This document shows positions 859-63,938 of a stretch of 64,000 nucleotides of DNA, piece after piece; within the stretch, counting starts at the first letter, position 1, and every line of letters starts with the position of its first letter. Below the pieces are notes generated by a model, which did not search any database, was not told where the DNA came from, and saw only the letters and a list, made by a program, of their open reading frames with translations. Both the position numbers and the translations under genes were made by a program. Origin of the DNA: Pseudomonadota bacterium. Its GTDB lineage: Bacteria; Pseudomonadota; Gammaproteobacteria; Burkholderiales; Casimicrobiaceae. Location of the stretch: the NCBI GenBank assembly GCA_018241765.1, contig JAFEDD010000023.1, positions 49,596 through 113,595 of the forward strand, in the 5' to 3' direction.

Positions 859-934
859 GCGGGAGTAGCTCAGTTGGTAGAGCGCAACCTTGCCAAGGTT
901 GAGGTCGCGAGTTCGAGACTCGTCTCCCGCTCCA
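859..934 (+). tRNA. tRNA-Gly(GCC)
   Basis: 76 nt cloverleaf: GCGGGAG/CTCCCGC acceptor stem, anticodon loop CTTGCCAA, GTTCGAG T-loop, encoded CCA. Confidence 0.98.
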
Positions 935-2260: not shown

Positions 2261-3754
2261 ATGCGCAACATCTTCTCCGGCATCAGCACCATCCTCGCCG
2301 TCTGCACGCTGCTCGCCGCAGCGCCAACCAGCGCGGCGCCGGGGGATTTGGATATCACCTTCGGCGCCGGTTCTGGCAAGGTGATAACCACGATTGGCAC
2401 GAGCCAGGACCGAGGACGTGCGATCGCCCTGCAACCCGACGGCAAGATCGTCGTCGCCGGGTATTGCGTGAACGGGATCAACTACGAGTTCTGCCTCGCT
2501 CGCTATCAGTTCAACGGCGCACTCGACACCGATTTTGGTTCAGGCGGCACGGTCATCAGCCCCTTCGATTCATCCGACGGCCTAGCTTGGGCCATCGCAC
2601 TTCAACCCGACGGCAAGATCGTCGTCGCCGGGGCTTGCTACAACAGCACCAACGGCGATTTCTGCCTCGCCCGCTATCAGGCCAGCGGCGCGCTCGACAC
2701 CGGTTTTGGTTCAGGCGGCAAGGTCATCAGCCCCATCGGTTCAGGCCACGATGCAGCCTACGCCGTCGCGCTGCAACCTGATGGCAAGATCGTCCTCGCC
2801 GGAGGTTGCCGGAACGGCAGTGGCTACGTCTTCTGCCTCGCTCGCTATCAGGTCAACGGCGCGCTCGACACCAGTTTTGGTTCAGACGGCAAGGTCATCA
2901 ACCCCAACGGCTCTGACGACGACCGAGCCTGGGCCATCGCCCTGCAACCCGACGGCAAGATCGTCGTCGCCGGGTCTTGCAAGAACGGCAGCAACTTTGA
3001 CTTCTGCCTCGCCCGCTATCAGGCCAACGGCGCGCTCGACTCCGGTTTTGGTTCAGGCGGCACGGTCATCAGCCCCATCGGTTCATACAACGACTTTGGC
3101 CAAGCCATCGCGCTGCAACCGGACGGCAAAATCGTCGCCGCCGGGTCTTGCGAAAACGGCAGCAAGAACGACTTCTGCCTCGCCCGCTATCAGGCCAACG
3201 GCGCGCTCGACTCCGGCTTTGGTTCAGGCGGCAAGATCATCAGCCCCATCAGTTCATCCACCGACTTTGGCGCTGCCATCGCGCTGCAACCCGACGGCAA
3301 GATCGTCGTCGCCGGGTCTTGCGCGGGTGTCAGCAGCTACGACTTCTGCCTTGCTCGCTATCAGGCCAACGGCGCACTCGACACCAGTTTTGGTTCAGGC
3401 GGCAAGGTCATCAGCCCCATCGGTTCATCCACCGACTATGACGGCGCCATCGCGCTGCAACCCGACGGCAAGATCGTCGTCGCCGGGTCTTGCGACAACG
3501 GCAGCGACTACGACTTCTGCCTCGCCCGCTTCGAGGGCGGGCCGTTCGGCTATCGCAACTGCACGATGGACATCGACGGTGATGGTGTCGTGCTCGCGAC
3601 GACCGACGCGCTGCTTCTTGCCCGCACGTCACTCGGCATGACCGGCAGCGCTGTCATCAACGGCATCAGCTTCGCCAGCCACGCCACCCGCAAGACCTGG
3701 CCTGACATCCGCAACTATCTGATCACCCAGTGCGGCATGACGCTCGCGCCGTAG
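2261..3754 (+). CDS. Secreted delta-60 repeat (beta-propeller-like) protein with C-terminal DxDGDG module
   Basis: Signal peptide; seven ALQPDGKIVVAG...ARY...GALDxxFG repeats; C-terminal CTMDIDGDG...TTDALLLAR..LGMTG. Confidence 0.85.
   Translation: MRNIFSGISTILAVCTLLAAAPTSAAPGDLDITFGAGSGKVITTIGTSQDRGRAIALQPDGKIVVAGYCVNGINYEFCLARYQFNGALDTDFGSGGTVISPFDSSDGLAWAIALQPDGKIVVAGACYNSTNGDFCLARYQASGALDTGFGSGGKVISPIGSGHDAAYAVALQPDGKIVLAGGCRNGSGYVFCLARYQVNGALDTSFGSDGKVINPNGSDDDRAWAIALQPDGKIVVAGSCKNGSNFDFCLARYQANGALDSGFGSGGTVISPIGSYNDFGQAIALQPDGKIVAAGSCENGSKNDFCLARYQANGALDSGFGSGGKIISPISSSTDFGAAIALQPDGKIVVAGSCAGVSSYDFCLARYQANGALDTSFGSGGKVISPIGSSTDYDGAIALQPDGKIVVAGSCDNGSDYDFCLARFEGGPFGYRNCTMDIDGDGVVLATTDALLLARTSLGMTGSAVINGISFASHATRKTWPDIRNYLITQCGMTLAP
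2341..3531 (+). repeat. Intragenic tandem repeat, period exactly 171 bp (57 aa), seven units
   Basis: Leu codon of ALQPDGK starts at 2429, 2600, 2771, 2942, 3113, 3284, 3455. Confidence 0.95.
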
Positions 3755-3931: not shown

Positions 3932-3965
3932 GCGTAGCCTCGCTGCAACGAAGTGGAATCGAGGG
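3932..3965 (+). repeat. GTAG-type REP element, copy 1
   Basis: GCGTAGCCTCGCTGCAACGAAGTGGAATCGAGGG; internal CCTCG...CGAGG palindrome after a GTAG tetranucleotide. Confidence 0.8.
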
Positions 3966-4009: not shown

Positions 4010-4043
4010 GCGTAGCCTCGATGGAACGAAGTGGAATCGAGGG
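4010..4043 (+). repeat. GTAG-type REP element, copy 2
   Basis: GCGTAGCCTCGATGGAACGAAGTGGAATCGAGGG. Confidence 0.85.
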
Positions 4044-4296
4044 TGATGGCATGACGCAAGCGGTGCTTGCAAGGGCTACCCGTGCCGACGCGAACGAGCC
4101 CGAGCGAAGCCGCCGTGGTCGCGCTGCGCGAAAACGCCCGCACCCGGAGGCTCGTGCTGAGCGTGATTGGGCGAAGAATTTCCTTGATTGGCGCGGTTTG
4201 CATGGCAACTTTCACGTACCGACGCCATCGTCGCGTCATCGACTTGTTCTCGGTACGATGTGACACTCAATTAACTCATTGATTTACAAGTAAAAC

Positions 4297-4400
4297 ATGT
4301 TTTTGAGTACTTCGTATGAGAGTTTTTTAGATTTTCAAGTCGACTTTTGCCGTATTTCGAGCTGGAAGCCCGTTGTAGATGCGCCTTCCAGCATCAAGCT
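4297..4400. repeat. ~115 bp dispersed palindrome, copy A (left arm degenerate and shortened)
   Basis: Dyad AAGTC|GACTTT at 4341/4342; right arm AAGCCCGTTGTAGATGC at 4366; outer AAGCT at 4396. Confidence 0.7.
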
Positions 4401-4432
4401 GTATCGCGTGCCAATTCCGTGTGGAAGCGCAG

Positions 4433-4467
4433 CACGTACCCTCGATAGAACGAAGTGGAATCGAGGG
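4433..4467 (+). repeat. GTAG-type REP element, copy 3 (variant)
   Basis: CACGTACCCTCGATAGAACGAAGTGGAATCGAGGG. Confidence 0.75.
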
Positions 4468-4633: not shown

Positions 4634-5644
4634 TTGCTCCGATTCGTCCTGACCCGCCTCGGCCTGCTCGTGCCCACGTTCATCGGCATGACGTTGGTGG
4701 CGTTCTTCCTGATTCGTCTGGTGCCGGGTGACCCCATCGAGACCCTGGCGGGGGAGCGCGGCATCGATGCCGCACGCCACGCCGCACTACTGAAGGAGCA
4801 CGGGCTCGACCGGCCGCTCGCGGTGCAGTACACGCTCTACATCGGGCGCGTGCTGCATGGGGATCTCGGGAAGTCCATGATCACGCAGGCGCCCGTGCTG
4901 AGCGAATTCAAGTCTTTGTTCCCGGCCACCATCGAGCTCGCGCTGTGCGCGATCCTGTTCGCGCTGCTGCTGGGTATCCCGGCCGGGATCATCGCGGCGG
5001 TGAAGCGAAATTCGATCTTCGACCATGGCGTGATGGGCGTATCCCTCACCGGCTATTCGATGCCCATCTTCTGGTGGGGACTGTTGCTGATCCTGCTCTT
5101 TTCCGTGAAGCTCGATCTGACACCGGTGTCCGGCCGACTCGACGTGAAGTACTTCGTCGAGCCCGTCAGCGGCTTCTTGCTCATCGATTCGATCATGGCG
5201 GGCGACAAGGACGCATTCCGCTCTGCGCTGAGCCATCTGATCCTCCCCGCCATCGTCCTCGGGACGGTGCCGCTTGCCGTCATCGCCCGCATGACGCGCT
5301 CGGCGATGCTCGAAGTCCTTGGTGAGGACTACATCCGCACGGCACGCGCGAAGGGCTTGTCGCAATTTCGCATCGTTTCACTGCACGCGTTGCGCAACGC
5401 GCTGATCCCGGTCGTCACCGTCATCGGCTTGCAGGTGGGCGTGCTGTTCACCGGTGCGATCCTGACCGAGACGATCTTCTCCTGGCCTGGCGTCGGAAAA
5501 TGGCTGATCGAGGCGATTTCGCGCCGCGACTACCCGGTGTTGCAGGGAGGCGTGCTCCTGATCGGCACCATGGTGATGGTCGTCAACCTGCTGGTTGATC
5601 TCACCTACGGCATCATCAACCCGCGCATCCGGCACCAACGATGA
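4634..5644 (+). CDS. dppB: Dipeptide ABC transporter permease
   Basis: TTG start; LVPGDP, GDLGKS, EAA loop EDYIRTARAKGL, DLTYGIINPRI. Confidence 0.92.
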   Translation: MLRFVLTRLGLLVPTFIGMTLVAFFLIRLVPGDPIETLAGERGIDAARHAALLKEHGLDRPLAVQYTLYIGRVLHGDLGKSMITQAPVLSEFKSLFPATIELALCAILFALLLGIPAGIIAAVKRNSIFDHGVMGVSLTGYSMPIFWWGLLLILLFSVKLDLTPVSGRLDVKYFVEPVSGFLLIDSIMAGDKDAFRSALSHLILPAIVLGTVPLAVIARMTRSAMLEVLGEDYIRTARAKGLSQFRIVSLHALRNALIPVVTVIGLQVGVLFTGAILTETIFSWPGVGKWLIEAISRRDYPVLQGGVLLIGTMVMVVNLLVDLTYGIINPRIRHQR

Positions 5645-8612: not shown

Positions 8613-10244
8613 ATGCATTCAACCTCTCGCCGCCTGTCGGCGCCCGGTTTCGTCAAGCGCGCGCTGGTATGCGCGCTTGCGGTACCGGCGCTGATGGCCG
8701 CTGCGCCGATCGCCGCCAAAACGCTGGTGTACTGCTCTGAAGGCAGCCCCGAGAATTTCTACCCGGGCGTCAACACGACCGGCACGTCGTTCGACGCCAA
8801 CTCGCAAATCTACAGCCGCATCGTCGATTTCGAACGCGGCGGCACGGCCGTGGTGCCGGGATTGGCCGAACGCTGGACGATTTCGCCGGACGGCAAGGAA
8901 TACACCTTCCATTTGCGCAAGGGCGTGAAATGGCACAGCAACCGCAATTTCAAACCGTCGCGCGACATGAACGCCGACGACATCATCTTCGCCGTCGAGC
9001 GGATGTGGAAGGAATCGAACCCCTACTTCAAGGTCACGAGCAGCAACCACTCGTACTTCAGCGACATGGGGCTCGACAAGCTGCTGAAGTCGGTGGAAAA
9101 GATCGATGACCACACGGTCAAGATGACACTCACCAAACCCGACGCACCGTTCCTGTCGAGTTGGGCGATGGAGTTCGCCGCCGTTCAATCGAAGGAGTAC
9201 GCCGATGCGATGCTGAAGGCCGGCACGCCCGAGAAAATTGATCAGGAGCCCATCGGCACGGGGCCGTTCTATCTGGTGCAGTACCAGAAGGACGCGATCA
9301 TCCGCTACAAGGCATTCCCGAGCTACTACGGCGGCAAGGCCAAGATCGACGACCTCGTGTTTTCGATCACGCCCGATGCCTCCGTTCGGTGGGCAAAACT
9401 GCAAAAGGGCGAATGTCACGTGATGCCCTACCCGAACCCGGCGGACCTCGACGCCATGCGCAAGGATTCGCGCATCGCCGTACTCGAGCAGCCCGGTCTC
9501 AACATCGGCTATCTGGCTTACAACGTGACCAAGAAGCCGTTTGACGACGTGCGAGTACGCAAAGCGGTCAACATGGCCATCAACAAGCAGGCCATCATCG
9601 ACGCCGTCTACATGAGCACGGGTGTCGCCGCGAAGAACCCGATCCCGCCGACACAGTGGTCCTACAACAACGCGATCAAGGATGATCCCTTCGATCAGGC
9701 CGCCGCGAAAAAGCTTCTCGCCGAAGCCGGGTACGCCAATGGCTTCACGACCGACCTGTGGGCGATGCCGGTGCAACGGCCGTACAACCCGAACGCCAAG
9801 CGCATCGCCGAACTGATGCAGGCGGACTTGGCCAAGGTCGGCATCAAGGCTGAAATCAAGAGCTTCGAGTGGGGCGAGTACCGCAAGCGCATGCAAAACG
9901 GCGAGCACCAGATGGGCATGCTCGGATGGACCGGCGACAACGGAGACCCGGACAACTTCCTGCACACGCTTCTCGGCTGCGAATCCGCAAAAGCCAACGG
10001 CAGCAACGTGGCGAAGTTCTGCTACAAGCCGTTCGACGATTTGGTCGTCAAGGCCAAGACGATCACCGACACAGCCGAGCGGACCAAGCTCTATCAACAG
10101 GCTCAGGTGATCTTCAAGGAGCAAGCGCCCTGGTTCACCATCGCTCACGCTGTGCAGCTGAAGCCGATGCGCAAGGAAGTCATCGACTTCAAGTTGAGCC
10201 CGTTCGGCCGTCACACCTTCTATGGTGTCGACATCAAGGAATGA
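8613..10244 (+). CDS. dppA: Dipeptide ABC transporter substrate-binding protein
   Basis: Signal peptide then KTLVYCSEGSPENF, PIGTGPF, LQKGECHVMPYPNPAD, MGWTGDNGDPDNF. Confidence 0.93.
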   Translation: MHSTSRRLSAPGFVKRALVCALAVPALMAAAPIAAKTLVYCSEGSPENFYPGVNTTGTSFDANSQIYSRIVDFERGGTAVVPGLAERWTISPDGKEYTFHLRKGVKWHSNRNFKPSRDMNADDIIFAVERMWKESNPYFKVTSSNHSYFSDMGLDKLLKSVEKIDDHTVKMTLTKPDAPFLSSWAMEFAAVQSKEYADAMLKAGTPEKIDQEPIGTGPFYLVQYQKDAIIRYKAFPSYYGGKAKIDDLVFSITPDASVRWAKLQKGECHVMPYPNPADLDAMRKDSRIAVLEQPGLNIGYLAYNVTKKPFDDVRVRKAVNMAINKQAIIDAVYMSTGVAAKNPIPPTQWSYNNAIKDDPFDQAAAKKLLAEAGYANGFTTDLWAMPVQRPYNPNAKRIAELMQADLAKVGIKAEIKSFEWGEYRKRMQNGEHQMGMLGWTGDNGDPDNFLHTLLGCESAKANGSNVAKFCYKPFDDLVVKAKTITDTAERTKLYQQAQVIFKEQAPWFTIAHAVQLKPMRKEVIDFKLSPFGRHTFYGVDIKE

Positions 10245-21840: not shown

Positions 21841-22829
21841 CGCCAACTGGCGGCACGCGCGGACCCTACCCGCCCAACGTGGACCCCGCGCGCCTCCGGC
21901 TGCTGCGCCGCTGCGCCATGCTGGGTGCGCTGCTGGTCGCCGCGGTCATCGGTCTCAGTGCCTTCATGCGACTGTCGGCCAGCGGACTCGACTGTCCGAC
22001 ATGGCCGAGCTGTTACGGTGAAGCGCTGCAACGAGCGCAGGCCGGCATGGCACCCGCGACGACGCCGAGCGAGGGTGTCGCGCTGGCTCGCATGGCGCAC
22101 CGCCTGCTGGCGATGGCCTTGCTGCCGCTCGCTCTGCTGCTCGCCTTCGCCGGTTTGACCGTACGCCCGCAGCCGTGGCGAGGGCGCTGGCACACGCTTG
22201 CCGCGTTGGCGCTCATCGTGTTCCTCGCCGCACTCGGGCGGGCAACGGCGGATGCGCGACTGCCGATCGTCACCATCGGAAATCTGCTCGGTGGCTTCGT
22301 GCTGTTCGCGCTGTTTTGGCGCATGGCCGCGCTCGCCACGACGACGCAACCGCCCGTGCTGCGCTGGCGGATGTGGCCGCTCCTCGCACTGCTCGCGCTC
22401 GTCATCGAGATCACGCTGGGCGCCATGGTGAGTGGCGGCTACGCGGCGCTCAGTTGCCTGTCGCTGACCGACTGCGCCAACGCGTGGTCGCAGCCCCTGG
22501 CCACGCTCGATCCGTGGCGCGAGCCGCGCTTCACGACGCTCGCCACACCCATCCACGCCGAAGGCGCGCTCTCGCATGTCCTGCATCGCTACGCGGCGCT
22601 CATCTGCACGGTGCTGCTGTGCGCCGCGGCGCTGTCGCTGCGACGTGACGGGAGAACGCGAGACGCGCTCGCCATCGTCGCGCTGACCGCGCTCGTCGTG
22701 GCACTCGGCATCGCGAGCGTCGCCGCCGGCATGCCGCTCTTCGTCGTGCTGCTGCACAACCTCGCAAGCGCCCTGCTGCTCGCCGTGACGGTCAACGCCG
22801 TGCGCGGCGCCGACGCCATCAGCCGCTGA
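21837..22829 (+). CDS. COX15/CtaA-family heme A synthase-like protein (variant)
   Basis: GLDCPTWPSCYG, AHR, LHRY, LHN motifs; helix-4 His position reads N (IGNLLGG). Confidence 0.8.
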   Translation: MTPTGGTRGPYPPNVDPARLRLLRRCAMLGALLVAAVIGLSAFMRLSASGLDCPTWPSCYGEALQRAQAGMAPATTPSEGVALARMAHRLLAMALLPLALLLAFAGLTVRPQPWRGRWHTLAALALIVFLAALGRATADARLPIVTIGNLLGGFVLFALFWRMAALATTTQPPVLRWRMWPLLALLALVIEITLGAMVSGGYAALSCLSLTDCANAWSQPLATLDPWREPRFTTLATPIHAEGALSHVLHRYAALICTVLLCAAALSLRRDGRTRDALAIVALTALVVALGIASVAAGMPLFVVLLHNLASALLLAVTVNAVRGADAISR

Positions 22830-23550
22830 GGCCAGTCACCGGCAACAGCGCCCCGTGCACCGCGCGCGCGGCGTCGGATGCGAGGAACACGATCACCTCC
22901 GCGAGCGCCTCGGGCGCCACCCAGCGCGCCGGATCCGCCTGCGGCATGTCGGCGCGGTTTTGCGGCGTGTCGATGATGCTCGGCAGCACCGCATTGACGT
23001 TGATGCCCTGCTCGCGCAGTTCCGCCGACATCGATTCCGTGAGGCGCATGACGACGCTCTTCGCCGCCGTGTAGGCACCCATGCGGGCCGCGCCACGCTG
23101 GGCGGCGAAGGCGCCGATGTTGACGATCCTGCCGCGAGCGCCGAACGCATTCGGCGCCTGCGAGAGCATTTGCGGCACCGTTGCCCGCGCCGCATTGAGC
23201 AGCGTCCGCGCATTGATGTCGAGCAGGAAGTCCCACGTCGCACGGCCGGTCTCGTGCACCGCTTCACCCATGCGAAAGCCGCCGACCAGATTGCACAGCA
23301 CGTGCACGCCGCCGAAGCGCTCGACCGCACCCGCCACCATCGCGGCCACCGATTCGCCATCGAGCAGGTCCGTTGGCGCCAGCCACTGCCGCGCGCCGTC
23401 GGCAAAGCCCGCCCGCTGCAACGCCTCCCGCGAGCGATCGACCAGCACCAGCGCCGCGCCACGTTCGGCGAAGGCACGCGCCACCGCGCCGCCAAGGTTG
23501 CCCGATGCGCCGGTCACGATGACCGTGCGTTCTTGCCACGTTTCCTGCAT
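22819..23550 (-). CDS. Short-chain dehydrogenase/reductase
   Basis: TGASGNLG, YTAAK catalytic motif, NAVLPSIIDTP; 3' end overlaps the ctaA-like gene by 11 bp. Confidence 0.9.
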   Translation of the reverse strand: MQETWQERTVIVTGASGNLGGAVARAFAERGAALVLVDRSREALQRAGFADGARQWLAPTDLLDGESVAAMVAGAVERFGGVHVLCNLVGGFRMGEAVHETGRATWDFLLDINARTLLNAARATVPQMLSQAPNAFGARGRIVNIGAFAAQRGAARMGAYTAAKSVVMRLTESMSAELREQGINVNAVLPSIIDTPQNRADMPQADPARWVAPEALAEVIVFLASDAARAVHGALLPVTGLSG

Positions 23551-23639
23551 TGCTCTGTGCCTCACTCAGTCATGTGTGTGCGAACGATTGTCGCGCAACC
23601 GCACGCGGGTGAACGTCGCAGCGCCATGAAAACTCAAAC

Positions 23640-23754
23640 AACTTTTTTCTACAAGCCGCATTCATAACGGGCTTGGAAGCCGAAAACGTTAAAACTCGAC
23701 TTTTGGCGATTTCGCGCTGCAAGCCCATTGTGGACGCCATTTGCGCATGAAGTT
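23640..23754. repeat. ~115 bp dispersed palindrome, copy B
   Basis: AACTTTT...TTCATAACGGGCTT-23-dyad(23697/8)-23-AAGCCCATTGTGGACGC...AAGTT. Confidence 0.9.
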
Positions 23755-23859
23755 ATATCGATTCCACCGCGCTATGTCGACGCTCCAGCGGGCAGACCAC
23801 GGATCGAGGTCGCTCGCACACCGTGGGACCCGATTGACCATCATCGAACGCAACCCAGC

Positions 23860-23893
23860 GCGTAGCCTCGATGCAACGAAGTGGAATCGAGGG
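23860..23893 (+). repeat. GTAG-type REP element, copy 4
   Basis: GCGTAGCCTCGATGCAACGAAGTGGAATCGAGGG. Confidence 0.85.
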
Positions 23894-24031: not shown

Positions 24032-24065
24032 CCCTCGATTCCACTTCGTTGCATCGAGGCTACGC
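24032..24065 (-). repeat. GTAG-type REP element, copy 5 (inverted relative to copy 4)
   Basis: CCCTCGATTCCACTTCGTTGCATCGAGGCTACGC is the exact reverse complement of copy 4. Confidence 0.88.
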
Positions 24066-24331
24066 TTGCAGCGCCGTGTCGACGCTCAGCGGGAAGGCGA
24101 CGGCACATGGTCGCTCGCACACCGTGGGACCCGATTGACCATCATCGAACGCAACCCAGCGCGGTCAAGCCCGCGCCTACCGCGGGCTTCGCTACCCAGA
24201 GCGATCGCGGTCGCATTCGGGTCGTTTCGGGAGACGCCCATTTTCGAACCGCGCGCACGCGATTTTTTACAACCTACCTATAATCGCCGCACTTGTAAAT
24301 TGTCACGTTCGTCCTCCCTCCAGAGCTCATC

Positions 24332-25258
24332 ATGAAAACCACACCCATCACCAAAGCCGATCTCGAACGCTCCGTCATCGCCGTGCCGCCGCTTGCGCGC
24401 AACGCCGACTTCTCGCTCAACGTGGCCGCCAACGTGCGCCTGATCAAGCACCTCGAAGGCGGCGGCGTGAAAAACATCATGTACGGCGGCAACGCCAACT
24501 TCTACCATGTGACGCTCGACGAATACGCCGAGTTGCTGGCCTTCCTCGAGTCCGCGGTCGCTGCCGACACCTGGGTGCTGCCCTCGGTCGGACCCGACTA
24601 CGGCAAGGCCATGAGCCAGGCGAAGATCATCCGCACGAGCGCGTTTCCGACCGCGATGCTGCTGCCGATGAGTTTCCCCTACACCGACCACGGCCTCGCC
24701 ACCGGCATTCGCCGCATCACCGACGCCATGGGCAAGAAGGCCGTGCTCTACATCAAGGCCGCGAACTACCTGAAACCCGACAGCGTCGCCGCACTGTGCA
24801 ACGAAGGGCGCATCGCCTCCATCAAGTACGCCGCCGTGATGGCCGACCCCGCCAATGACCCGTACCTCGGCGAACTGGTCAAGGTCGTGAGCCGCGACCT
24901 CCTGGTGAGCGGCATCGGCGAACGGCCGGCCATCGTGCACCTGCGCGACTTCGGCCTGACCGGCTTCACCTCGGGTTCGGTATGCGTCGCGCCGCGCGGC
25001 TCGACGCAGATGCTCGCGCACCTGAAGGCAAAGCAGTACGCCGAAGCCGAGGCGATCCGCGCCCGCTACCTGCCACTCGAGGATTGCCGCGACGACATCA
25101 GCCCGATCCGTGTGCTGCACGACGCCGTCACGCTCGCCGGCGTCGCCGACATGGGCCCGATGCTGCCGATGCTCTCCGGACTCGAAGCCGCCGAGCGCAC
25201 CCGCGTCGAGCCCGTGGCCAAGGCACTCTTGGCGGCCGACGGGGGCTACGCCGGCTGA
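24332..25258 (+). CDS. DapA/NanA-family (dihydrodipicolinate synthase-like) aldolase/dehydratase
   Basis: Family layout with Schiff-base Lys in SIKYA; YGGNANF replaces the usual GxxGE. Confidence 0.75.
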   Translation: MKTTPITKADLERSVIAVPPLARNADFSLNVAANVRLIKHLEGGGVKNIMYGGNANFYHVTLDEYAELLAFLESAVAADTWVLPSVGPDYGKAMSQAKIIRTSAFPTAMLLPMSFPYTDHGLATGIRRITDAMGKKAVLYIKAANYLKPDSVAALCNEGRIASIKYAAVMADPANDPYLGELVKVVSRDLLVSGIGERPAIVHLRDFGLTGFTSGSVCVAPRGSTQMLAHLKAKQYAEAEAIRARYLPLEDCRDDISPIRVLHDAVTLAGVADMGPMLPMLSGLEAAERTRVEPVAKALLAADGGYAG

Positions 25259-38544: not shown

Positions 38545-38970
38545 ATGAACGGCACCACGCCCGACATTCCCTGGCAAGGCATCGTCACCGACGTCGCGGA
38601 GGCGCTGATCTACGCCGACCGCGACGGCATCATCCGCGTCTGGAATGCCCAGGCCGAAGCCGTGTTCGGCTTCAGCGCCGCCGAGGCGCTCGGCCAGAGC
38701 CTCGACCTGATCATCCCCGAACACTTGCGCGAGGCGCATTGGGTGGGCTGGCGCGCCGCACTCGAGCGCGGCCGCACCCGCCTTGGCGCGCAGATACGCA
38801 CGACGCGCGGGCTGCATCGCGAGGGGCGCAAGCTCTATGTGGACATGAGCTTCGCCGTCGTCCACGACGCCGAGGGCCGCGCCTGCGGCTCGGTCGCCAT
38901 GGCCCGCGACGCCACCGAGCGCTATCTCGCCGAGCGCGCCCGACGCGACACCGCCAAGCCCGGCGGCTGA
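38545..38970 (+). CDS. Stand-alone PAS-domain protein
   Basis: EALIYADRDGII..WNAQAEAVFGFSAAEALGQSLDLIIPE; no output domain. Confidence 0.85.
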   Translation: MNGTTPDIPWQGIVTDVAEALIYADRDGIIRVWNAQAEAVFGFSAAEALGQSLDLIIPEHLREAHWVGWRAALERGRTRLGAQIRTTRGLHREGRKLYVDMSFAVVHDAEGRACGSVAMARDATERYLAERARRDTAKPGG

Positions 38971-39118
38971 GCCGCGCCCGCCCGCCGCCCGCGAATCCGA
39001 CACCGGCCACGACCAACGCGCCGGCCATCGACAAAACATCAACAAAATCAACGCATTATGCAAATGCGCACGCCTTTCTTGGCTCGCGACGCGCATCCAT
39101 GCGATGTTTTTTCATAAC

Positions 39119-39232
39119 AACTTTTTCATGGAAGCACGTCCATAACAGGCTTGGAGCCCGTTTTCGCTTGATGTCGACTTTTGGCGTTTTCAGCTTCCAA
39201 GCCTGCTATAGACGTCATCGCAGTAAAAAGCT
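39119..39232. repeat. ~115 bp dispersed palindrome, copy C
   Basis: AACTTTTT...TCCATAACAGGCTT-23-dyad(39175/6)-23-AAGCCTGCTATAGACG...AAAAAGCT. Confidence 0.9.
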
Positions 39233-39383
39233 ATTGGCGCACACGATGTCCGCGCGGGCAGCGTGAGCACGAAACCGCACAAAAAAAGGCGTCACCCGGC
39301 AACCCCATCACCCGATCCGGCTCGTTTCAGTCACCAACGGCCCCGCATCGGGGCTCGCCCCGGCCCTCGGAAAGGAGCCCTCC

Positions 39384-40253
39384 ATGTTGCACAAAGCCTT
39401 GTTCGTCGCCGTCGCCGCCGCCACGGTCGCCCTCGCCGCGCCGACGCCGGCCGCCGCCGTCGGCCGCATCGCCGACGTCACCGTCTTCGACCGCGACACG
39501 GGTCGCACGCTGCCGATCTACACCTATCGCGGCGAGTACTGGGTCGCCGGACGGCCCGGCGCCAAGTACGCCATCTCGGTGCGCAACCTCGGTCCCGGCC
39601 GCATCCTGGCCGTGACCTCGGTCGACGGCGTCAACGTGGTGAGCGGGCAGACCGCCGGCATCAACCAGCCCGGCTACGTGTTCGATGGCTATCAGAGCTA
39701 CCAGATCGCCGGTTGGCGCAAGAGCAACGCGCAGATCGCCGCGTTCGAGTTCGTCGCCTCCGGCGCCTCCTACGCCGAGCGCACCGGACGGCCGGCCAAC
39801 GTCGGCGTCATCGGCGTCGCGGTGTTTCGCGAACTCGTGCGCCCGCCGCTGCCGGTCGAACCGCAGGTCTACCCGGGCTCGCCCTACGGGGGCGGCAAGG
39901 CGCAGGCCGATGGCGCACGCTCGGCTCCTTCGGCGGCAGTGCCAGCGCCGGCGCCTGCGGAATCTTCGGCCCCGATGAGCGAACCGCCCGCCGCAGCGAG
40001 CGCCAGAAGCGCCAACCGCGAGAAGCTCGGCACCGGTCACGGTGAGCGCGAATGGTCGTCGGCGACGACAACCGACTTCGAGCGCGCGAGGTCCAGCCCG
40101 AACGAAGTCATCAGCATCCGCTACGACAGCTACGACAACCTCGTCGCGATGGGCATCGTGCCGGCGCCGCGCCCGCCGTGGCCGCGCAGCCCGAACCCGT
40201 TCCCGAGTGACAACGGCTACGTGCCCGACCCGCCACCGCGCCATCGCTGGTAG
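39384..40253 (+). CDS. Exported hypothetical protein upstream of the ECF sigma factor
   Basis: RBS AAGGAG; signal peptide; SVDGVNV, NVGVIGVAVFRE, LGTGHG, IRYD motifs; Pro/Ala linker. Confidence 0.8.
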   Translation: MLHKALFVAVAAATVALAAPTPAAAVGRIADVTVFDRDTGRTLPIYTYRGEYWVAGRPGAKYAISVRNLGPGRILAVTSVDGVNVVSGQTAGINQPGYVFDGYQSYQIAGWRKSNAQIAAFEFVASGASYAERTGRPANVGVIGVAVFRELVRPPLPVEPQVYPGSPYGGGKAQADGARSAPSAAVPAPAPAESSAPMSEPPAAASARSANREKLGTGHGEREWSSATTTDFERARSSPNEVISIRYDSYDNLVAMGIVPAPRPPWPRSPNPFPSDNGYVPDPPPRHRW

Positions 40254-49504: not shown

Positions 49505-50311
49505 TTACATGCGCGCGAAGCGGTGCGCGTGGTGGCGTGACACGACGATGCGCTCGGAGACGCCGTGCAGCGACAGCAGCACGCGCCCGCTGAAATCGCG
49601 CTCGGCGCTGCGCACCGCGCGCAAATTGACGATGGTCGAGCGGTGCGCCTGCACGAAGAGCGACGGATCGAGCTGCTCGGCCAGGTCTTTCAGCGCGATG
49701 CGGATCAAGTGCTCCTCGCCATCGCGCGTGTACACCGACACGTATTTGTCCTGCGCCTGAAGGTAGGTGACCTCGTCGACCGGCACGATGCGCACGGTGT
49801 CGCCGAGCCCCGCGCGCAGAAACTGCAACCACGGCGTGCCACCGCCACCGCGGTTCAGGTGCCCCGCCAGCGTGAGCGCGCGCGCCAATTCGTCGAGCGC
49901 ACCGGCCGACGGGCCCCCTGCGGCGAGCGCCAGACGGCGGCGCAGCCGCTCGACCGTTTCCGCCAGGCGTTCGTCGGCGACCGGCTTCACGAGGTAATCC
50001 ACCGCCTCGCGATCGAAGGCTTCGAGCGCATGCGCATCGTAGGCCGTGACGAACACCACCAGCGGCGCCGGAGTGTCGCTGGCCAACAGGCGCTCGGCCA
50101 CCGCGAGACCGCTCAGGCCCGGCATGCGGATGTCCAGAAAGAGCACGTCGGGCGCGTGCTGCTCGACGGCGAGCAGCGCCGCCGGGCCGTTGCCGACGAC
50201 GTCGGCGACGATGAGCTCCGGCCACAGCCGCGCCAGCGCCTCGCGCAACGAGCGCGCAAGCGGCGCCTCGTCCTCGGCGATCAATGCGATGGGGCGTGAT
50301 GGTGAAGGCAT
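49505..50311 (-). CDS. LytTR-family response regulator
   Basis: IAEDE, LFLDIRMPG, FVTAYD, DYLVKP; C-terminal AQDKY...FVQAHRSTIVN; start likely MPSP (50326 possible). Confidence 0.93.
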   Translation of the reverse strand: MPSPSRPIALIAEDEAPLARSLREALARLWPELIVADVVGNGPAALLAVEQHAPDVLFLDIRMPGLSGLAVAERLLASDTPAPLVVFVTAYDAHALEAFDREAVDYLVKPVADERLAETVERLRRRLALAAGGPSAGALDELARALTLAGHLNRGGGGTPWLQFLRAGLGDTVRIVPVDEVTYLQAQDKYVSVYTRDGEEHLIRIALKDLAEQLDPSLFVQAHRSTIVNLRAVRSAERDFSGRVLLSLHGVSERIVVSRHHAHRFARM

Positions 50312-50312
50312 C

Positions 50313-50427
50313 AGCTTTTTCTCCAAATGACGTTCATAACGGGCTTGGCGCTCATTTTTCCTGAAACTCGACTTTCAGTGTTTCTTCGATGCAAGCCCGT
50401 CATGGATGCGGATTACGTGAAAAAGTT
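50313..50427. repeat. ~115 bp dispersed palindrome, copy D
   Basis: AGCTTTTT...TTCATAACGGGCTT-23-dyad(50369/70)-23-AAGCCCGTCATGGATGC...AAAAAGTT. Confidence 0.9.
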
Positions 50428-50452
50428 GTTGACCGTTTTGACGTTCGCAGGG

Positions 50453-52246: not shown

Positions 52247-52539
52247 GCAGAAAAAATAGCGGAAATGGACGACCAGGGAGGCGCGCACGCACGGCACGGA
52301 AAACCGTGGCGCTGCGCCGCCGCATTCTAGTCGCCAAGGCTGACGCAAAACTGGCGCGCAACCACCGGCGGACGGGCGCCCGCTATACTTCGGGCTCTTT
52401 TTCCGCACCGCCCCACGGGGTCATTTCCCTGACTGGTCCAGCCACGACGGTCGACCGCTCAGCGCAATGACATCGCCATGGGGCGCGGACGAGCGGCGGC
52501 CCACGTCGCCGCCGTGCGCCACACCCTCACCCACCCGGC

Positions 52540-57581: not shown

Positions 57582-58277
57582 TCAGTCGAGCTTCATCGTG
57601 AACGGAATCTCCACCTCGTGGCTGACGTCCGATCGCTCCGTGCGGCACGCACTGTCGGTGAGCGGTGTGTTGAACGTGCGCTGCACTGCGTTGCGCATGT
57701 TGGCCGGGGAGACCTCTCTGACGCGAACGTTGGTGAAGGTTCCGTCCGGGTTCACGGTGACCAGGATCGTGCCATCGATGCGGTCGACACCAGCCTTGTT
57801 CATGTCGCGCACCGGTGGCGAATCGGGTCGACACGCGGCCGGCAACTGCGACATGCCAAGGCGGCTGACCGTTGGCCTGGGCGCCGGGGGCGCCGGGGGC
57901 GCTGGCGGCGCCGGGGGCGGCGGTGGCTCGATCTTGTACTCGGTCTTCGGCGGCTCGCTCGTCGTCGTGATGCTGGGCGCGGCGGGCGCCTGTACCTGCA
58001 CCTCGACGGGCGGCACGTACGGAGGCGGCGGCGCGGCCGGCGGCGGCGGCGGCAGATTCGGCATCTTCGGCGGCGGAGGCGGCGGTGGCGGCGGCGGTGG
58101 CGGGGGCAGCTTGACCTCCTCCACGATCTTCGCCTCCAGCGGCTTCTTGATCACTTCCACCGCCTTGCGCGCCAGTCCGGTCACCAACGCGTAGATGATG
58201 AACAGATGCAGCGCAACGACGACAGCGATCGCGACCGATCGCTTGCTCGACTTCGCGGGTTTATAGGTGTAATCCAT
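57582..58277 (-). CDS. tonB: TonB-like energy transducer with divergent C-terminal domain
   Basis: VVALH TM with conserved His, poly-Pro linker, position after exbB-exbD-exbD. Confidence 0.8.
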   Translation of the reverse strand: MDYTYKPAKSSKRSVAIAVVVALHLFIIYALVTGLARKAVEVIKKPLEAKIVEEVKLPPPPPPPPPPPPPKMPNLPPPPPAAPPPPYVPPVEVQVQAPAAPSITTTSEPPKTEYKIEPPPPPAPPAPPAPPAPRPTVSRLGMSQLPAACRPDSPPVRDMNKAGVDRIDGTILVTVNPDGTFTNVRVREVSPANMRNAVQRTFNTPLTDSACRTERSDVSHEVEIPFTMKLD

Positions 58278-63308: not shown

Positions 63309-63543
63309 GTGAGTTTCCCCGTTTGGTGACAAGAACTGACTCGCGCATTCTGCACGGCGCCGCGCTTGCTGTCAGCCCCCTGTCAGCCGTGGCCGCGCCG
63401 CGACGGGTGCGTGCAACGCTGGTGTCTCGCCTGCGCTCGGCGGGCAACAATTTGATTCGATTGATGTTTTTTTGATCGCACGCGCGCTCGGAGCGGGCGT
63501 TCGCGGCCGCTTGGCCCGCCGTTCGCCGCACATGTCATTGATC

Positions 63544-63658
63544 AACTTTTCGTTCAAATGACCTTCATAAAGGGCTTTCAGCGATATTTTCGCCAAAGTC
63601 GACTTTCGGCATATTTCGCACCAAAGCCCGTTATGGATGCGGCTTTTCATGCAAAGTT
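63544..63658. repeat. ~115 bp dispersed palindrome, copy E
   Basis: AACTTTT...TTCATAAAGGGCTT-23-dyad AAAGTC|GACTTT(63600/1)-23-AAGCCCGTTATGGATGC...AAAGTT. Confidence 0.92.
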
Positions 63659-63938
63659 GCTTGCGATTCGTTGTACCGCTGCAACAGGGGGCACGGGGCC
63701 GGGCGTCAGCGGCGCGGCCGACCCTTGTCCGTTGGGACGAACGACGACAGATTGCGACCGGCGTCGACCGGAATTCGGGCCGCTTGGCGTACGATTGCGC
63801 ACTGCCTCGGGGGCGTCAAGGCCACGTCGCCGCAACGCGCGGAACGTGCCGCCCAGTGGGGAACGCCCCGCGCCAGCAGGTCGCGCGCCGCCCCGCTCGC
63901 TCCTCGAACCGGAACTCACGCAATCGGAGGGACTTCCC

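What the first reader, a model, noticed from the sequence alone, without database searches (positions are those of the whole stretch)
23640..23754. Dispersed ~115 bp palindromic element with invariant geometry (five copies in 64 kb)
Seen: copies at ~4297-4400, 23640-23754, 39119-39232, 50313-50427 and 63544-63658, all intergenic. Layout: AACTTTT - ~12 bp - TYCATAACGGGCTT - 23 bp - dyad in (G/C)TC|GACTTT - 23 bp - AAGCCCGTYATRGAYGC - ~11 bp - AAAGTT. In copies B-E the inner arms are exactly 23 bp from the dyad on both sides, and the outer boxes are 52-53 bp away, about 5 helical turns each side. The intervening bases differ widely between copies. The neighbouring genes share no function (dpp, SDR/DapA, PAS/ECF, two-component pair, TonB receptor). 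Inference: spacing conserved without sequence points to selection on a structure. Options are a DNA site wrapped or bridged by a symmetric protein complex (topoisomerase, nucleoid or SMC-associated factor, recombinase), a long RNA hairpin, or a domesticated ERIC-like miniature element. I do not recognise it as a described family. At this density a genome would hold hundreds.
Basis: partly seen in the sequence, partly recalled or inferred. Interest (0 to 1): 0.88.

Follow-up and report, generated by a model that had tools for sequence, protein, structure and literature searches.

The report
Conserved palindromic repeat carrying methylation site
The five copies are real members of an undescribed family of about 124-bp, A/T-rich, mirror-symmetric intergenic repeats in wastewater Burkholderiales, kept at the same gene junctions across genera, and their invariant centre AGTCGACT is the sequence that a cultured relative methylates on adenine genome-wide.

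Summary
Five copies are present (A is half-decayed), the motifs occur far above chance, and the geometry is exact. More than 20 further copies from metagenomes, relatives and read-laying keep the centre TC|GA and the inner boxes in the same register, with no net indels.

It belongs to the ERIC/Correia/CIR class of small palindromic repeats, but to no described family (no hit in Rfam, E. coli genomes, plasmids or phages). It is not visibly mobile today. All same-species genomes carry the same copies. Copy D (histidine kinase-response regulator junction) and copy E (upstream of a TonB receptor) sit at orthologous sites in lineages with only 64-82% protein identity.

Three things are conserved: the centre, a few boxes with exact arm length, and A/T tracts phased every 9.5-10 bp. 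Arm-to-arm pairing beyond that is only weakly maintained. This points to a DNA-level bent, protein-bound site more than to an RNA hairpin.

The centre AGTCGACT equals a fully 6mA-methylated 8-bp motif of Casimicrobium huifangae, whose clade carries the family. Perfect IHF consensus sites flank three window copies. The function remains inferred. Interest is moderate to high.

The parts
23635..23758 (.). Copy B (the finding): full-length element between the divergent SDR gene (22819-23565, minus strand) and the DHDPS-like gene (24332-25258, plus strand). The dyad lies between 23697 and 23698.
   Evidence: Covariance model 103.8 bits; sequence; RNA fold z -4.5; gene context.
23691..23704 (.). Centre of B, AAAACTCGACTTTT. 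The family consensus is AAAAGTCGACTTTT. TCGA is invariant in all copies, and the full AGTCGACT is present in 10 of 17 copies but not in B.
23661..23674 (.). Left inner box of B, TTCATAACGGGCTT, at 24-37 nt from the dyad.
23721..23734 (.). Right inner box of B, AAGCCCATTGTGGA, at 24-37 nt from the dyad.
23637..23648 (.). Left outer box of B, AACAACTTTTTT. The C of AAC lies 56 nt from the dyad.
23749..23757 (.). Right outer box of B, GAAGTTATA. The G lies 55 nt from the dyad, and the box ends in TA.
4292..4404 (.). Copy A: right arm and centre (AGTCGACT) are intact and the left arm is decayed. It lies in an 880-nt spacer upstream of the dpp permease gene (4634-5644, plus strand), among REP-like repeats.
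   Evidence: Covariance model 32.3 bits, E 0.0027.
39114..39236 (.). Copy C: downstream of the PAS gene (38545-38970, plus strand) and 148 nt upstream of a 289-aa gene (39384-40253, plus strand) that precedes an ECF sigma factor gene.
   Evidence: Covariance model 111.6 bits; gene calls.
50308..50431 (.). Copy D: fills the gap between the LytS-type histidine kinase stop (50453) and the LytTR response-regulator start (ATG 50311-50309), both on the minus strand. The SD GGAG (50321-50324) lies inside the element. The same junction is occupied in four other lineages.
63539..63662 (.). Copy E: lies between the divergent TonB-dependent receptor gene (60633-63308, minus strand) and a peptidase S9 gene beyond the window end. 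Its centre is AGTCGACT. The orthologous site is occupied in L050 and L044.
63445..63457 (-). Perfect IHF consensus AATCAAATTGTTG, 149 nt from the dyad of E, between the element and the TonB promoter-like site. It is conserved at +149/150 in L050, L044 and the paralogous module L044b.
39046..39058 (+). Perfect IHF consensus AATCAACGCATTA, 123 nt from the dyad of C.
4272..4284 (-). Perfect IHF consensus AATCAATGAGTTA, 63 nt from the dyad of A.
63347..63375 (-). Sigma-70-like promoter match CTGACA-17-CAGAAT for the TonB receptor gene, in a block conserved across genera. The element lies about 165 nt upstream of it.

Best explanation
**What it is.** The element belongs to a previously undescribed family of about 124-bp, A/T-rich, two-fold symmetric intergenic repeats. 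It is of the same general kind as ERIC, Correia and CIR elements. The family occurs in an uncultured Burkholderiales lineage from activated sludge and in its relatives, including the Casimicrobium clade. It probably spread long ago as a small inverted-repeat element. Subfamilies, frequent TA ends and one near-perfect copy point that way. It is now fixed and retained at orthologous gene junctions.

**How it most likely works.** It most likely acts on double-stranded DNA, as a symmetric, intrinsically bent platform centred on the 8-bp palindrome AGTCGACT. In the cultured relative Casimicrobium huifangae this palindrome is a fully N6-adenine-methylated motif. A dimeric factor, the methyltransferase or a methylation-sensitive binding protein, would read the centre. 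The phased A/T tracts and the IHF-like outer boxes would let the arms bend or wrap. The assembly would modulate the adjacent promoter or promoters, in some places together with a separate IHF site.

**Shown.**
- The family exists and has exact geometry.
- Copies are conserved at orthologous sites.
- The A/T phasing is present and conserved.
- The centre motif occurs almost only inside elements.
- The centre is identical to the published methylation motif.

**Inferred.**
- The site is methylated in this organism.
- A protein binds it.
- It affects transcription.

**Confidence.** The figure of 0.45 is for the DNA-level mechanism. That the element is a new, ancient, fixed family of this class I hold at about 0.85.
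For: **Family and geometry.**
- Ten motif hits against 0.69 expected.
- All true hits of a wide-gap metagenome scan have the identical 62-nt span, while chance hits have other spans.
- Twelve copies align over 100 nt without a single gap.
- When contigs are laid on copies D and L011, every indel pair nets zero and the loose-end consensuses keep TCGA in register.

**Retention.**
- The D junction is occupied in the window genus, L018, L021 and L052, where the response regulator is 63-69% identical.
- The E site is occupied in L050 and L044, where the TonB receptor is 82% and 79% identical. The distance to the ATG is 231/231/232 nt.

**DNA-level signature.**
- Across 32 arms, A/T tracts lie at 4-6, 12-15, 24-25, 31-34, 43-45 and 51-54 nt from the dyad. 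The period is 9.5-10 bp, z 15-20.
- Positions 12-15 are 94-100% A/T, although A and T interchange and the arms pair there only at the chance level.
- The low G+C is kept in genomes of 55-66% G+C.
- The element has no polarity.
- No promoter or terminator match lies inside B or E, and E lies upstream of the conserved TonB promoter block.

**Centre and methylation.**
- AAGTCGACTT occurs only inside elements in the window and in 580 kb of loci.
- The only two AGTCGACT sites in the window are the centres of A and E. In the loci, 7 of 9 non-redundant sites are element centres.
- In C. huifangae SJ-1, AGTCGACT is 6mA-modified at 329 of 332 instances, and the genome has two orphan Type II methyltransferases (PMC13515534).
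- Genomes whose response regulator is 87-92% identical to a 'Casimicrobium sp.' protein carry the family.

**IHF.** All 3 perfect WATCAANNNNTTR sites of the window (0.18 expected) lie within 150 nt of a copy.
Against: - No direct evidence exists for methylation, protein binding or a regulatory effect in this organism. The methylome comes from a related genus, and I could not read that genome.
- Seven of 17 copies, including B, C and D of the window, lack the full 8-mer. They keep TCGA and one half-site.
- Some pairing signal does exist. Paired cells are 64.8% against 59.9% in shuffles, with covariation 7-16 nt from the dyad. Pairing at variable positions exceeds independent decay, 0.48 against 0.375. 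The L052 copy keeps complementary arms with changed sequence. A hairpin or cruciform is therefore not excluded.
- Between two close genomes, D and E together differ at 10 of 248 positions against 6% at third codon positions, so short-term constraint is not measurable.
- Degenerate copies exist (A, L018b, a possible remnant in L046), so single copies are dispensable.
- The neighbouring genes share no obvious function.
Confidence: 0.45

Rival explanations
1. The element acts as an RNA hairpin. It is co-transcribed with its neighbours, and its long imperfect stem-loop controls mRNA stability, processing or translation, as shown for ERIC in Yersinia and proposed for Correia elements.
For: - Copy D sits inside a two-gene operon, with the SD and the ATG at the base of the stem.
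- Copies B-E fold with z -3.0 to -4.5, and L011, L013 and L007 with z -4.9 to -13.8.
- There is a modest excess of pairing, and double changes occur 7-16 nt from the dyad.
- The L052 arms stay complementary with changed sequence.
- The ERIC and Correia precedents are described in PMC2229807.
Against: - The element has no polarity. Forward and reverse alignments score alike, and the outer boxes lie at 55/56 nt on either arm.
- G.U pairs are not favoured over A.C on the sense strand of the D orthologues (13 against 19).
- The A/T tracts pair at the chance level while their W character is kept.
- Several old copies fold no better than shuffles, z -0.5 to -1.8.
- E lies about 165 nt upstream of the predicted, conserved promoter.
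- The centre is conserved as sequence, not as a loop of any sequence.
- Metatranscriptome contigs were too sparse to show transcription.
Confidence: 0.2
2. The element is selfish or neutral DNA: a non-autonomous transposable element (MITE) with no host function. The apparent conservation would come from slow decay, arm-to-arm or copy-to-copy gene conversion, or repeated insertion into preferred sites.
For: - It has full-length inverted-repeat architecture, is A/T-rich, and often ends in TA on both sides (about 7 of 13 left ends and 7 of 11 right ends). These are features of bacterial MITEs (PMC2229807).
- Subfamilies exist.
- One near-perfect palindrome, L011, has 50 of 60 Watson-Crick pairs.
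- Decayed copies exist.
- Short-term divergence is about neutral.
Against: - No presence/absence polymorphism was found in any same-species genome or metagenome contig.
- No empty site was found, so a target duplication remains untested.
- No longer element with the same ends occurs in 580 kb.
- No related sequence occurs in plasmids, phages or viral contigs.
- Orthologous copies persist in up to five lineages with exact arm length, despite near-saturated substitution at other positions.
- A/T tracts persist against the G+C pressure of 55-66% G+C genomes.
Confidence: 0.15
3. The element is a strong DNA gyrase or other topoisomerase site that fixes supercoiling between transcription units, like BIME-2 or the Mu strong gyrase site.
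For: - It is about 124 bp long and symmetric about a 4-bp core, with periodic A/T versus G/C alternation.
- The E. coli gyrase motif is 130 bp long, symmetric about a 4-bp staggered cut, and has periodic flanks. BIME-2 repeats are transcription-independent gyrase sites (PMC6379681).
Against: - The period here is 9.5-10 bp, not 10.75 bp.
- The centre is a strictly conserved specific palindrome, whereas the gyrase motif is degenerate and read indirectly.
- Quinolone-stabilised scission occurs before G. A symmetric 4-bp stagger here would cut G^TCGAC, after G.
Confidence: 0.07

Closest known systems
CIR (CcrM-associated intergenic repeats) of Caulobacter, Brucella and other alphaproteobacteria
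   Same: - Intergenic repeats of about 110 bp.
- Conserved between species.
- Never found in genes.
- They carry a phylogenetically conserved adenine-methyltransferase recognition site at or near the tip of a predicted stem-loop (PMC2229807).
- TA termini occur.
- The function is unproven.
   Different: - CIR has two separate stem-loop arms joined by a linker and a 5-bp GANTC site of an essential cell-cycle methylase.
- This element is one long palindrome with an 8-bp palindromic site exactly on the dyad.
- It occurs in betaproteobacteria, which generally lack CcrM (my own knowledge).
- No sequence similarity was tested, because no CIR sequence was at hand.
ERIC / IRU / RU-1 of enterobacteria
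   Same: Imperfect palindromes of about 127 bp, intergenic, with a conserved central part, found at orthologous sites in different species and sometimes inside operons (PMC2229807).
   Different: - There is no sequence similarity: blastn against 5,426 E. coli genomes finds nothing.
- ERIC has a defined orientation that matters for its RNA effect. This element has none.
- No methylation motif is described for ERIC.
Correia / NEMIS elements of Neisseria
   Same: Inverted-repeat elements of 100-155 bp with TA ends, associated with IHF sites, lying close to promoters (PMC2229807).
   Different: - In Correia elements the IHF site is internal, the termini are the best-conserved part, and filled and empty sites are common between strains.
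- Here the centre is the best-conserved part, the perfect IHF sites lie outside the element, and no empty site was found.
BIME-1 (RIP/RIB) and BIME-2 of E. coli
   Same: Dispersed palindromic mosaics of about 100 bp that bind architectural proteins, IHF and gyrase (abstract of PMC2817692; PMC6379681).
   Different: - BIMEs are built from G+C-rich 35-bp REP hairpins and lie mainly at 3' ends of transcription units (my own knowledge).
- This element is a single A/T-rich unit found next to gene starts.
- The window has a separate REP-like family.
E. coli gyrase binding motif / strong gyrase sites
   Same: Length of 124-130 bp, two-fold symmetry about a 4-bp core, and periodic base composition in the arms.
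   Different: The period is 9.5-10 bp against 10.75 bp, and the centre is specific rather than degenerate.

Membership tests
Bacterial MITE-type small repeats (Correia/ERIC/RUP class) | Under 200 bp, non-coding, multiple dispersed intergenic copies. | tested here: met
   The element is about 124 bp. There are five copies in the window and at least about 25-30 per genome by contig laying. No conserved reading frame is present (frames read directly from the sequences).
Bacterial MITE-type small repeats (Correia/ERIC/RUP class) | Terminal inverted repeats and a long stem-loop potential. | tested here: met
   The palindrome runs the full length. In register, 64.8% of cells pair, against 34-44% when the register is slid.
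Bacterial MITE-type small repeats (Correia/ERIC/RUP class) | 5'-TA-3' at the termini and a target-site duplication. | tested here: inconclusive
   TA is present at about half of the left and right ends. No empty site was available, so a duplication could not be tested.
Bacterial MITE-type small repeats (Correia/ERIC/RUP class) | Evidence of mobility: filled and empty sites between strains or species. | tested here: not met
   All same-species genomes carry B, C, D and E at the same places. Orthologous sites are filled across genera. The two relatives without E have rearranged loci.
Bacterial MITE-type small repeats (Correia/ERIC/RUP class) | A partner insertion sequence with the same ends. | tested here: inconclusive
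   None was seen in 580 kb of loci, nor in plasmids, phages or viral contigs. Whole genomes could not be scanned.
ERIC (as a sequence family) | Sequence similarity to the 127-bp enterobacterial consensus. | tested here: not met
   blastn of the most consensus-like copy against all complete E. coli genomes finds no match.
CIR-like methylation-site repeats | A conserved methyltransferase recognition site inside a conserved intergenic repeat. | tested here: met
   The centre AGTCGACT equals motif 9 of the C. huifangae SJ-1 methylome. TCGA is invariant in all copies and the full 8-mer is present in 10 of 17. The motif occurs almost only in elements.
CIR-like methylation-site repeats | The site is actually methylated in the host that carries the repeat. 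| not testable with these tools
   The methylome exists only for C. huifangae SJ-1.
REP / BIME | G+C-rich hairpins of 20-40 bp, often clustered, linked to a RAYT transposase. | tested here: not met
   The element is 124 bp long with 41-48% G+C. A different 34-nt REP-like family is present in the window.
Integron attC site | RYYYAAC ... GTTRRRY core sites bounding gene cassettes next to an integrase. | tested here: not met
   The ends AACAAC...GTTGTT do not fit RYYYAAC/GTTRRRY (read). The neighbours are syntenic housekeeping genes of normal G+C content, not cassettes.
Intrinsic (bidirectional) terminator | A G+C-rich stem followed by a T run. | tested here: not met
   No terminator-like site is found in the B or E regions. 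The T run precedes the hairpin on both strands.
Any Rfam RNA family | A score at or above the family's gathering threshold. | tested here: not met
   Only two tRNAs are found in the window. With permissive thresholds, only sub-threshold hairpin look-alikes (plant miRNA precursors) appear.
Gyrase motif / strong gyrase site | A 130-bp symmetric pattern with flanks of 10.75-bp period, and cleavage at the centre. | tested here: inconclusive
   Symmetry and length fit. The period is 9.5-10 bp against 10.75 bp. Cleavage cannot be tested here.
ECF-sigma promoter pair (my own idea) | AAC-type -35 and TC/CGT-type -10 elements at a 16-17 nt spacing, conserved. | tested here: not met
   AACTT-N16-TCATA fits the window-genus copies. 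The -10-like part is not conserved in the orthologues L018, L021 and L044.

The most novel reading that the evidence does not exclude
The family is the dedicated dispersed target of an adenine methyltransferase with a rare 8-bp specificity (AGTCGACT). A methylation-sensitive, symmetric nucleoprotein complex would assemble on each copy, on bent DNA and with IHF nearby, and would set the expression of the neighbouring genes. These include TonB receptors, a LytS/LytTR pair, an ECF sigma operon and transporters. This would be an epigenetic regulon spread by a repeat, a betaproteobacterial counterpart of CcrM and CIR.
Probability: 0.25. Interest if true: 0.8.

Novelty: new member of a known kind. 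Interest (0 to 1): 0.6.

Why it matters
- **Link to an unexplained methylome result.** The family would connect to a published observation in Casimicrobium huifangae, a core activated-sludge bacterium. There the 8-bp palindrome AGTCGACT is fully 6mA-methylated and, by my calculation, 3-6 times over-represented.
- **Evidence for selection on a repeat.** Few bacterial repeat families show clear signs of selection. Here the evidence is orthologous retention across genera, exact arm length and phased A/T tracts.
- **A testable question.** Does a methylase together with a repeat form a regulatory network outside the alphaproteobacteria?
- **Practical use.** The repeats break short-read assemblies of these abundant wastewater organisms. 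They also matter for the genetic tools now being built for them.

Tried and rejected
- **Empty sites and mobility.** I laid contigs of four runs on 20 kb and fetched same-species genomes around B, C, D and E. All sites were filled, so nothing can be said about a target duplication.
- **RNA evidence.** Two 'RNA' wastewater runs covered everything evenly, probably from DNA carry-over. The true metatranscriptomes were too thin.
- **ECF-sigma promoter pair** (AACTT-N16-TCATA). Rejected because the -10-like part is not conserved in old orthologues.
- **Sigma-70 promoter or terminator inside the element.** None was found.
- **Small ORF.** Several copies start with ATGAC... and stay open, but B and C do not, and the variable parts show no codon pattern (read).
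- **Integron attC.** The ends and the context do not fit.
- **Gyrase site.** The period does not fit.
- **Strand polarity or replichore bias.** The element is symmetric, so it has no orientation to test.
- **Autonomous partner element.** None was seen in 580 kb.
- **Similarity searches.** Plasmids, phages, E. coli genomes and viral contigs gave nothing.
- **Genome-collection scan.** With a strict pattern it found only one copy outside the window's species (L001). The window's own genome is not in that collection, so copy number could not be counted directly.
Full report
**1. The observation**

The inner-arm motif AAGCCCGTYATRGA, with up to two mismatches, occurs ten times in the window against 0.69 expected. 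That is both arms of B, C, D and E, the right arm of A, and one stray hit.

The five copies align. A covariance model built from ten family members finds exactly these five in 64 kb. A scores only 32 bits because its left arm has decayed.

The elements have 41-48% G+C in a window of 61-73%. The gene calls are from G+C at codon position 3, Pfam, and the gene tables of public contigs. They place the copies as follows:
- A lies upstream of a dpp permease gene.
- B lies between a divergent SDR gene and a DHDPS-like gene.
- C lies between a PAS gene and a 289-aa gene that precedes an ECF sigma gene.
- D lies between the stop of a LytS-type kinase and the start of its LytTR response regulator.
- E lies between a divergent TonB receptor gene and a peptidase S9 gene.

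D is not strictly intergenic. The regulator's GGAG and the spacer to its ATG lie inside the element's terminal box.

**2. Geometry**

I stacked copies on the dyad TC|GA without gaps. The centre (AAAGTC|GACTTT), the inner box (CATAACGGGCTT, 24-35 nt out) and the T run (51-54) then fall in the same columns on both arms. The outer AAC/GTT boundary sits at 55 or 56 nt on either arm.

It returned 16 hits. The five true members (G+C-rich contigs with all the other boxes) all had the same 62-nt span. The eleven chance hits, in low-G+C contigs, had spans of 52-73 nt.

Twelve copies from six lineages align over 100 nt with no gap at all. I laid assembly contigs of four runs at 80% likeness on copy D and on the L011 copy, with these results:
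- 24-32 contigs per run were laid.
- Depth ratios correspond to about 12-18 copies per arm.
- Every listed indel was paired with an opposite one.
- The loose-end consensuses have TCGA in exact register.

The geometry claim therefore holds for more than 20 additional copies. The per-genome copy number has a lower bound of about 25-30.

**3. Whose genome, and is the family known?**

Proteins of the window are labelled 'Burkholderiales bacterium' (MAGs) where they carry a name. The runs holding the window are wastewater and activated-sludge metagenomes.

Rfam has no family for the element. blastn finds nothing in plasmids, phages or 5,426 E. coli genomes, which contain ERIC and BIME. A viral-contig scan finds nothing.

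A strict pattern scan of 185,579 species genomes found one copy, in an 'uncultured Alcaligenaceae' MAG. The window's own species is not in that collection.

**4. Not visibly mobile, but old**

Every same-species genome or contig fetched carries B, C, D and E with identical spacing.

The decisive result came from distant orthologues. The kinase-regulator junction carries the element, in register, in four other lineages:

| Locus | Assembly | Regulator identity to the window |
|---|---|---|
| L018 | GCA_027492485.1 | 68-69% |
| L021 | GCA_963852695.1 | 65-68% |
| L052 | GCA_016790165.1 | 63-64% |

In L052 the inner boxes are gone. The centre TAAGTCGACTA and the outer boxes still lie at 55/56 nt.

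The site upstream of the TonB receptor carries the element in L050 (receptor 82% identical) and in L044 (79%). The distance to the ATG is 231, 231 and 232 nt. Two further relatives (74% and 67%) have rearranged loci and no intact copy.

Among orthologues only 34-41 of 132 columns are invariant. These are chiefly AAGTCGAC, GGGC/GCCC, CTTT and AAAAGC.

With substitution that far advanced, several indels per copy would be expected under neutrality. That expectation is my inference and I did not compute it. None has changed the arm length.

At short range there is no measurable constraint. Against a 97.2% identical genome, D differs at 9 of 120 positions (2 of them in boxes) and E at 1 of 124. Third codon positions differ at 6.0%.

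**5. Hairpin or double-stranded site?**

*Evidence for pairing.*
- In register, 64.8% of cells form pairs, against 59.9 +/- 1.4% when partners are shuffled among copies and 34-44% when the register is slid. Double changes concentrate 7-16 nt from the dyad.
- Pairing at variable positions exceeds what independent decay of two arms from one consensus predicts (0.48 against 0.375, Wilcoxon p 0.002).
- L052 keeps complementary arms of changed sequence.

*Evidence against pairing being the selected property.*
- Within-copy pairing barely exceeds between-copy pairing: 0.48-0.53 against 0.37-0.45 near the centre, and no excess further out.
- Old copies fold with z of only -0.5 to -1.8 in four of seven cases.
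- G.U is not favoured over A.C on the sense strand of the D orthologues.
- The element has no polarity.

*The new observation.* Over 32 arms of 16 copies, A/T content forms tracts at 4-6, 12-15, 24-25, 31-34, 43-45 and 51-54 nt from the dyad. The period is 9.5-10 bp, z 15-20 against within-arm shuffles. The pattern is the same in the distant lineages.

Positions 12-15 are 94-100% A or T, although A and T interchange freely. The two arms pair there only as often as chance for W against W.

Composition in helical phase is therefore conserved, not complementarity. This is the signature of DNA that is bent or lies on a protein surface. The same reasoning is applied to the gyrase motif in PMC6379681. 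The A/T richness is also kept against the G+C content of the host genomes.

**6. The centre**

AAGTCGACTT occurs only in elements, both in the window and in 580 kb of fetched loci.

A 2026 methylome paper on Casimicrobium huifangae SJ-1 lists nine motifs. Motif 9 is AGTCGACT, with 6mA at position 6, modified at 329 of 332 instances. The genome has two orphan Type II methyltransferases (PMC13515534).

The site totals in that paper's Table 1 give a genome of about 4.45 Mb with 62.4% G+C. From these I expect about 53 loci. The reported 332 instances correspond to 166 loci if both strands are counted, as MotifMaker does to my knowledge. That is a 3- to 6-fold excess. This calculation is my own.

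In the window, the only two AGTCGACT sites are the centres of A and E. In about 200 kb of non-redundant loci, 7 of 9 sites are element centres.

The genomes of L044 and L021, which carry the family, have response regulators 92% and 87% identical to a protein labelled 'Casimicrobium sp.'. The family is therefore present in that clade.

I could not read the SJ-1 genome itself, so the link is strong but indirect. Seven of 17 copies, including B, C and D, have only TCGA plus one half-site.

**7. IHF sites and a larger module**

The window holds three perfect matches to WATCAANNNNTTR (0.18 expected). They lie 63, 123 and 149 nt from the dyads of A, C and E.

The E-linked site is conserved at +150 in L050 and L044. 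The non-orthologous copy L044b has one at +149.

The E and b modules also share a left flank (GCAAnGAnGCAACGA) and lie upstream of paralogous TonB receptor genes. At least these two copies are therefore parts of a duplicated regulatory module of about 290 nt.

The element lies about 165 nt upstream of a conserved promoter-like block, CTGACA-17-CAGAAT. The outer box TAACAACTTTTTG itself is one mismatch from the IHF consensus. No IHF consensus accompanies B, D or the copies in L018, L021 and L052.

**8. Interpretation**

*Class.* The element belongs to the small palindromic intergenic repeats of bacteria: under 200 bp, inverted repeats, A/T-rich, TA ends, long stem-loop potential (PMC2229807).

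*Closest analogue in logic.* This is CIR of Caulobacter, an intergenic repeat of about 110 bp conserved between species, with a conserved CcrM site at a stem-loop tip and unproven function.

*Most likely working.* The element is probably a DNA-level symmetric platform whose centre is read by a dimeric protein, either the methylase or a methylation-sensitive factor. Its phased A/T arms bend or wrap, and it acts on the neighbouring promoter.

*Rivals.* These are an RNA hairpin, a functionless MITE kept alike by gene conversion, and a topoisomerase site.

The family is new. The kind is known.

Noticed in passing
window 3932-3965, 4010-4043, 4435-4467, 23860-23893 (+) and 24032-24065 (-): A second repeat family: a 34-nt REP-like unit, GCGTAGCCTCGATGCAACGAAGTGGAATCGAGGG, with an internal CCTCGAT...ATCGAGG palindrome. 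Copies are 91-100% alike and cluster in the same long spacers as copies A and B. Two of them form a perfect inverted pair 138 nt apart.
   Followed up: no
window 23786-23862 and 24087-24163: A 77-nt direct repeat (91% identity) brackets the REP-like inverted pair next to copy B. This suggests a composite mosaic, and short-read contigs break here.
   Followed up: no
window 2375-3529 (ORF 2261-3754, plus strand): Six tandem 171-nt (57-aa) repeats, 75-81% alike, lie inside a gene whose product matches DUF5122 beta-propeller repeats.
   Followed up: no
window 4272-4284, 39046-39058, 63445-63457: All three perfect IHF consensus sites in the 64-kb window lie within 150 nt of an element. The E-linked site is conserved at the same distance in two other genera and in a paralogous module.
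   Followed up: partly
L028 16681-16973, aligned with L018 7221-7482 and L044 22223-22493 (window about 52409-52539, between the PPase and poly(A) polymerase genes): The divergent spacer between the poly(A) polymerase and pyrophosphatase genes aligns at about 70% over 217 nt between genera whose proteins are about 65-70% identical. It may hold an unannotated conserved regulatory region or small RNA.
   Followed up: no
window 63309-63380: A 72-nt block directly upstream of the TonB receptor ATG is conserved across three genera. It contains the promoter-like CTGACA-17-CAGAAT and repeated TGACA/GTCA motifs.
   Followed up: partly
window 57879-58101: A run of GGC-rich imperfect repeats encoding a glycine-rich stretch, inside the 231-aa gene next to the ExbD genes.
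   Followed up: no
window 859-931 and 997-1067: Two tRNA genes, the only Rfam matches in the window.
   Followed up: no
L046 about 9640-9740: A possible shortened remnant of the element (GATACAGC...AAAAAAGCCGTATAG, about 85 nt) lies upstream of the 74%-identical TonB receptor. The IHF site and promoter block are kept at the usual distance from the ATG.
   Followed up: partly
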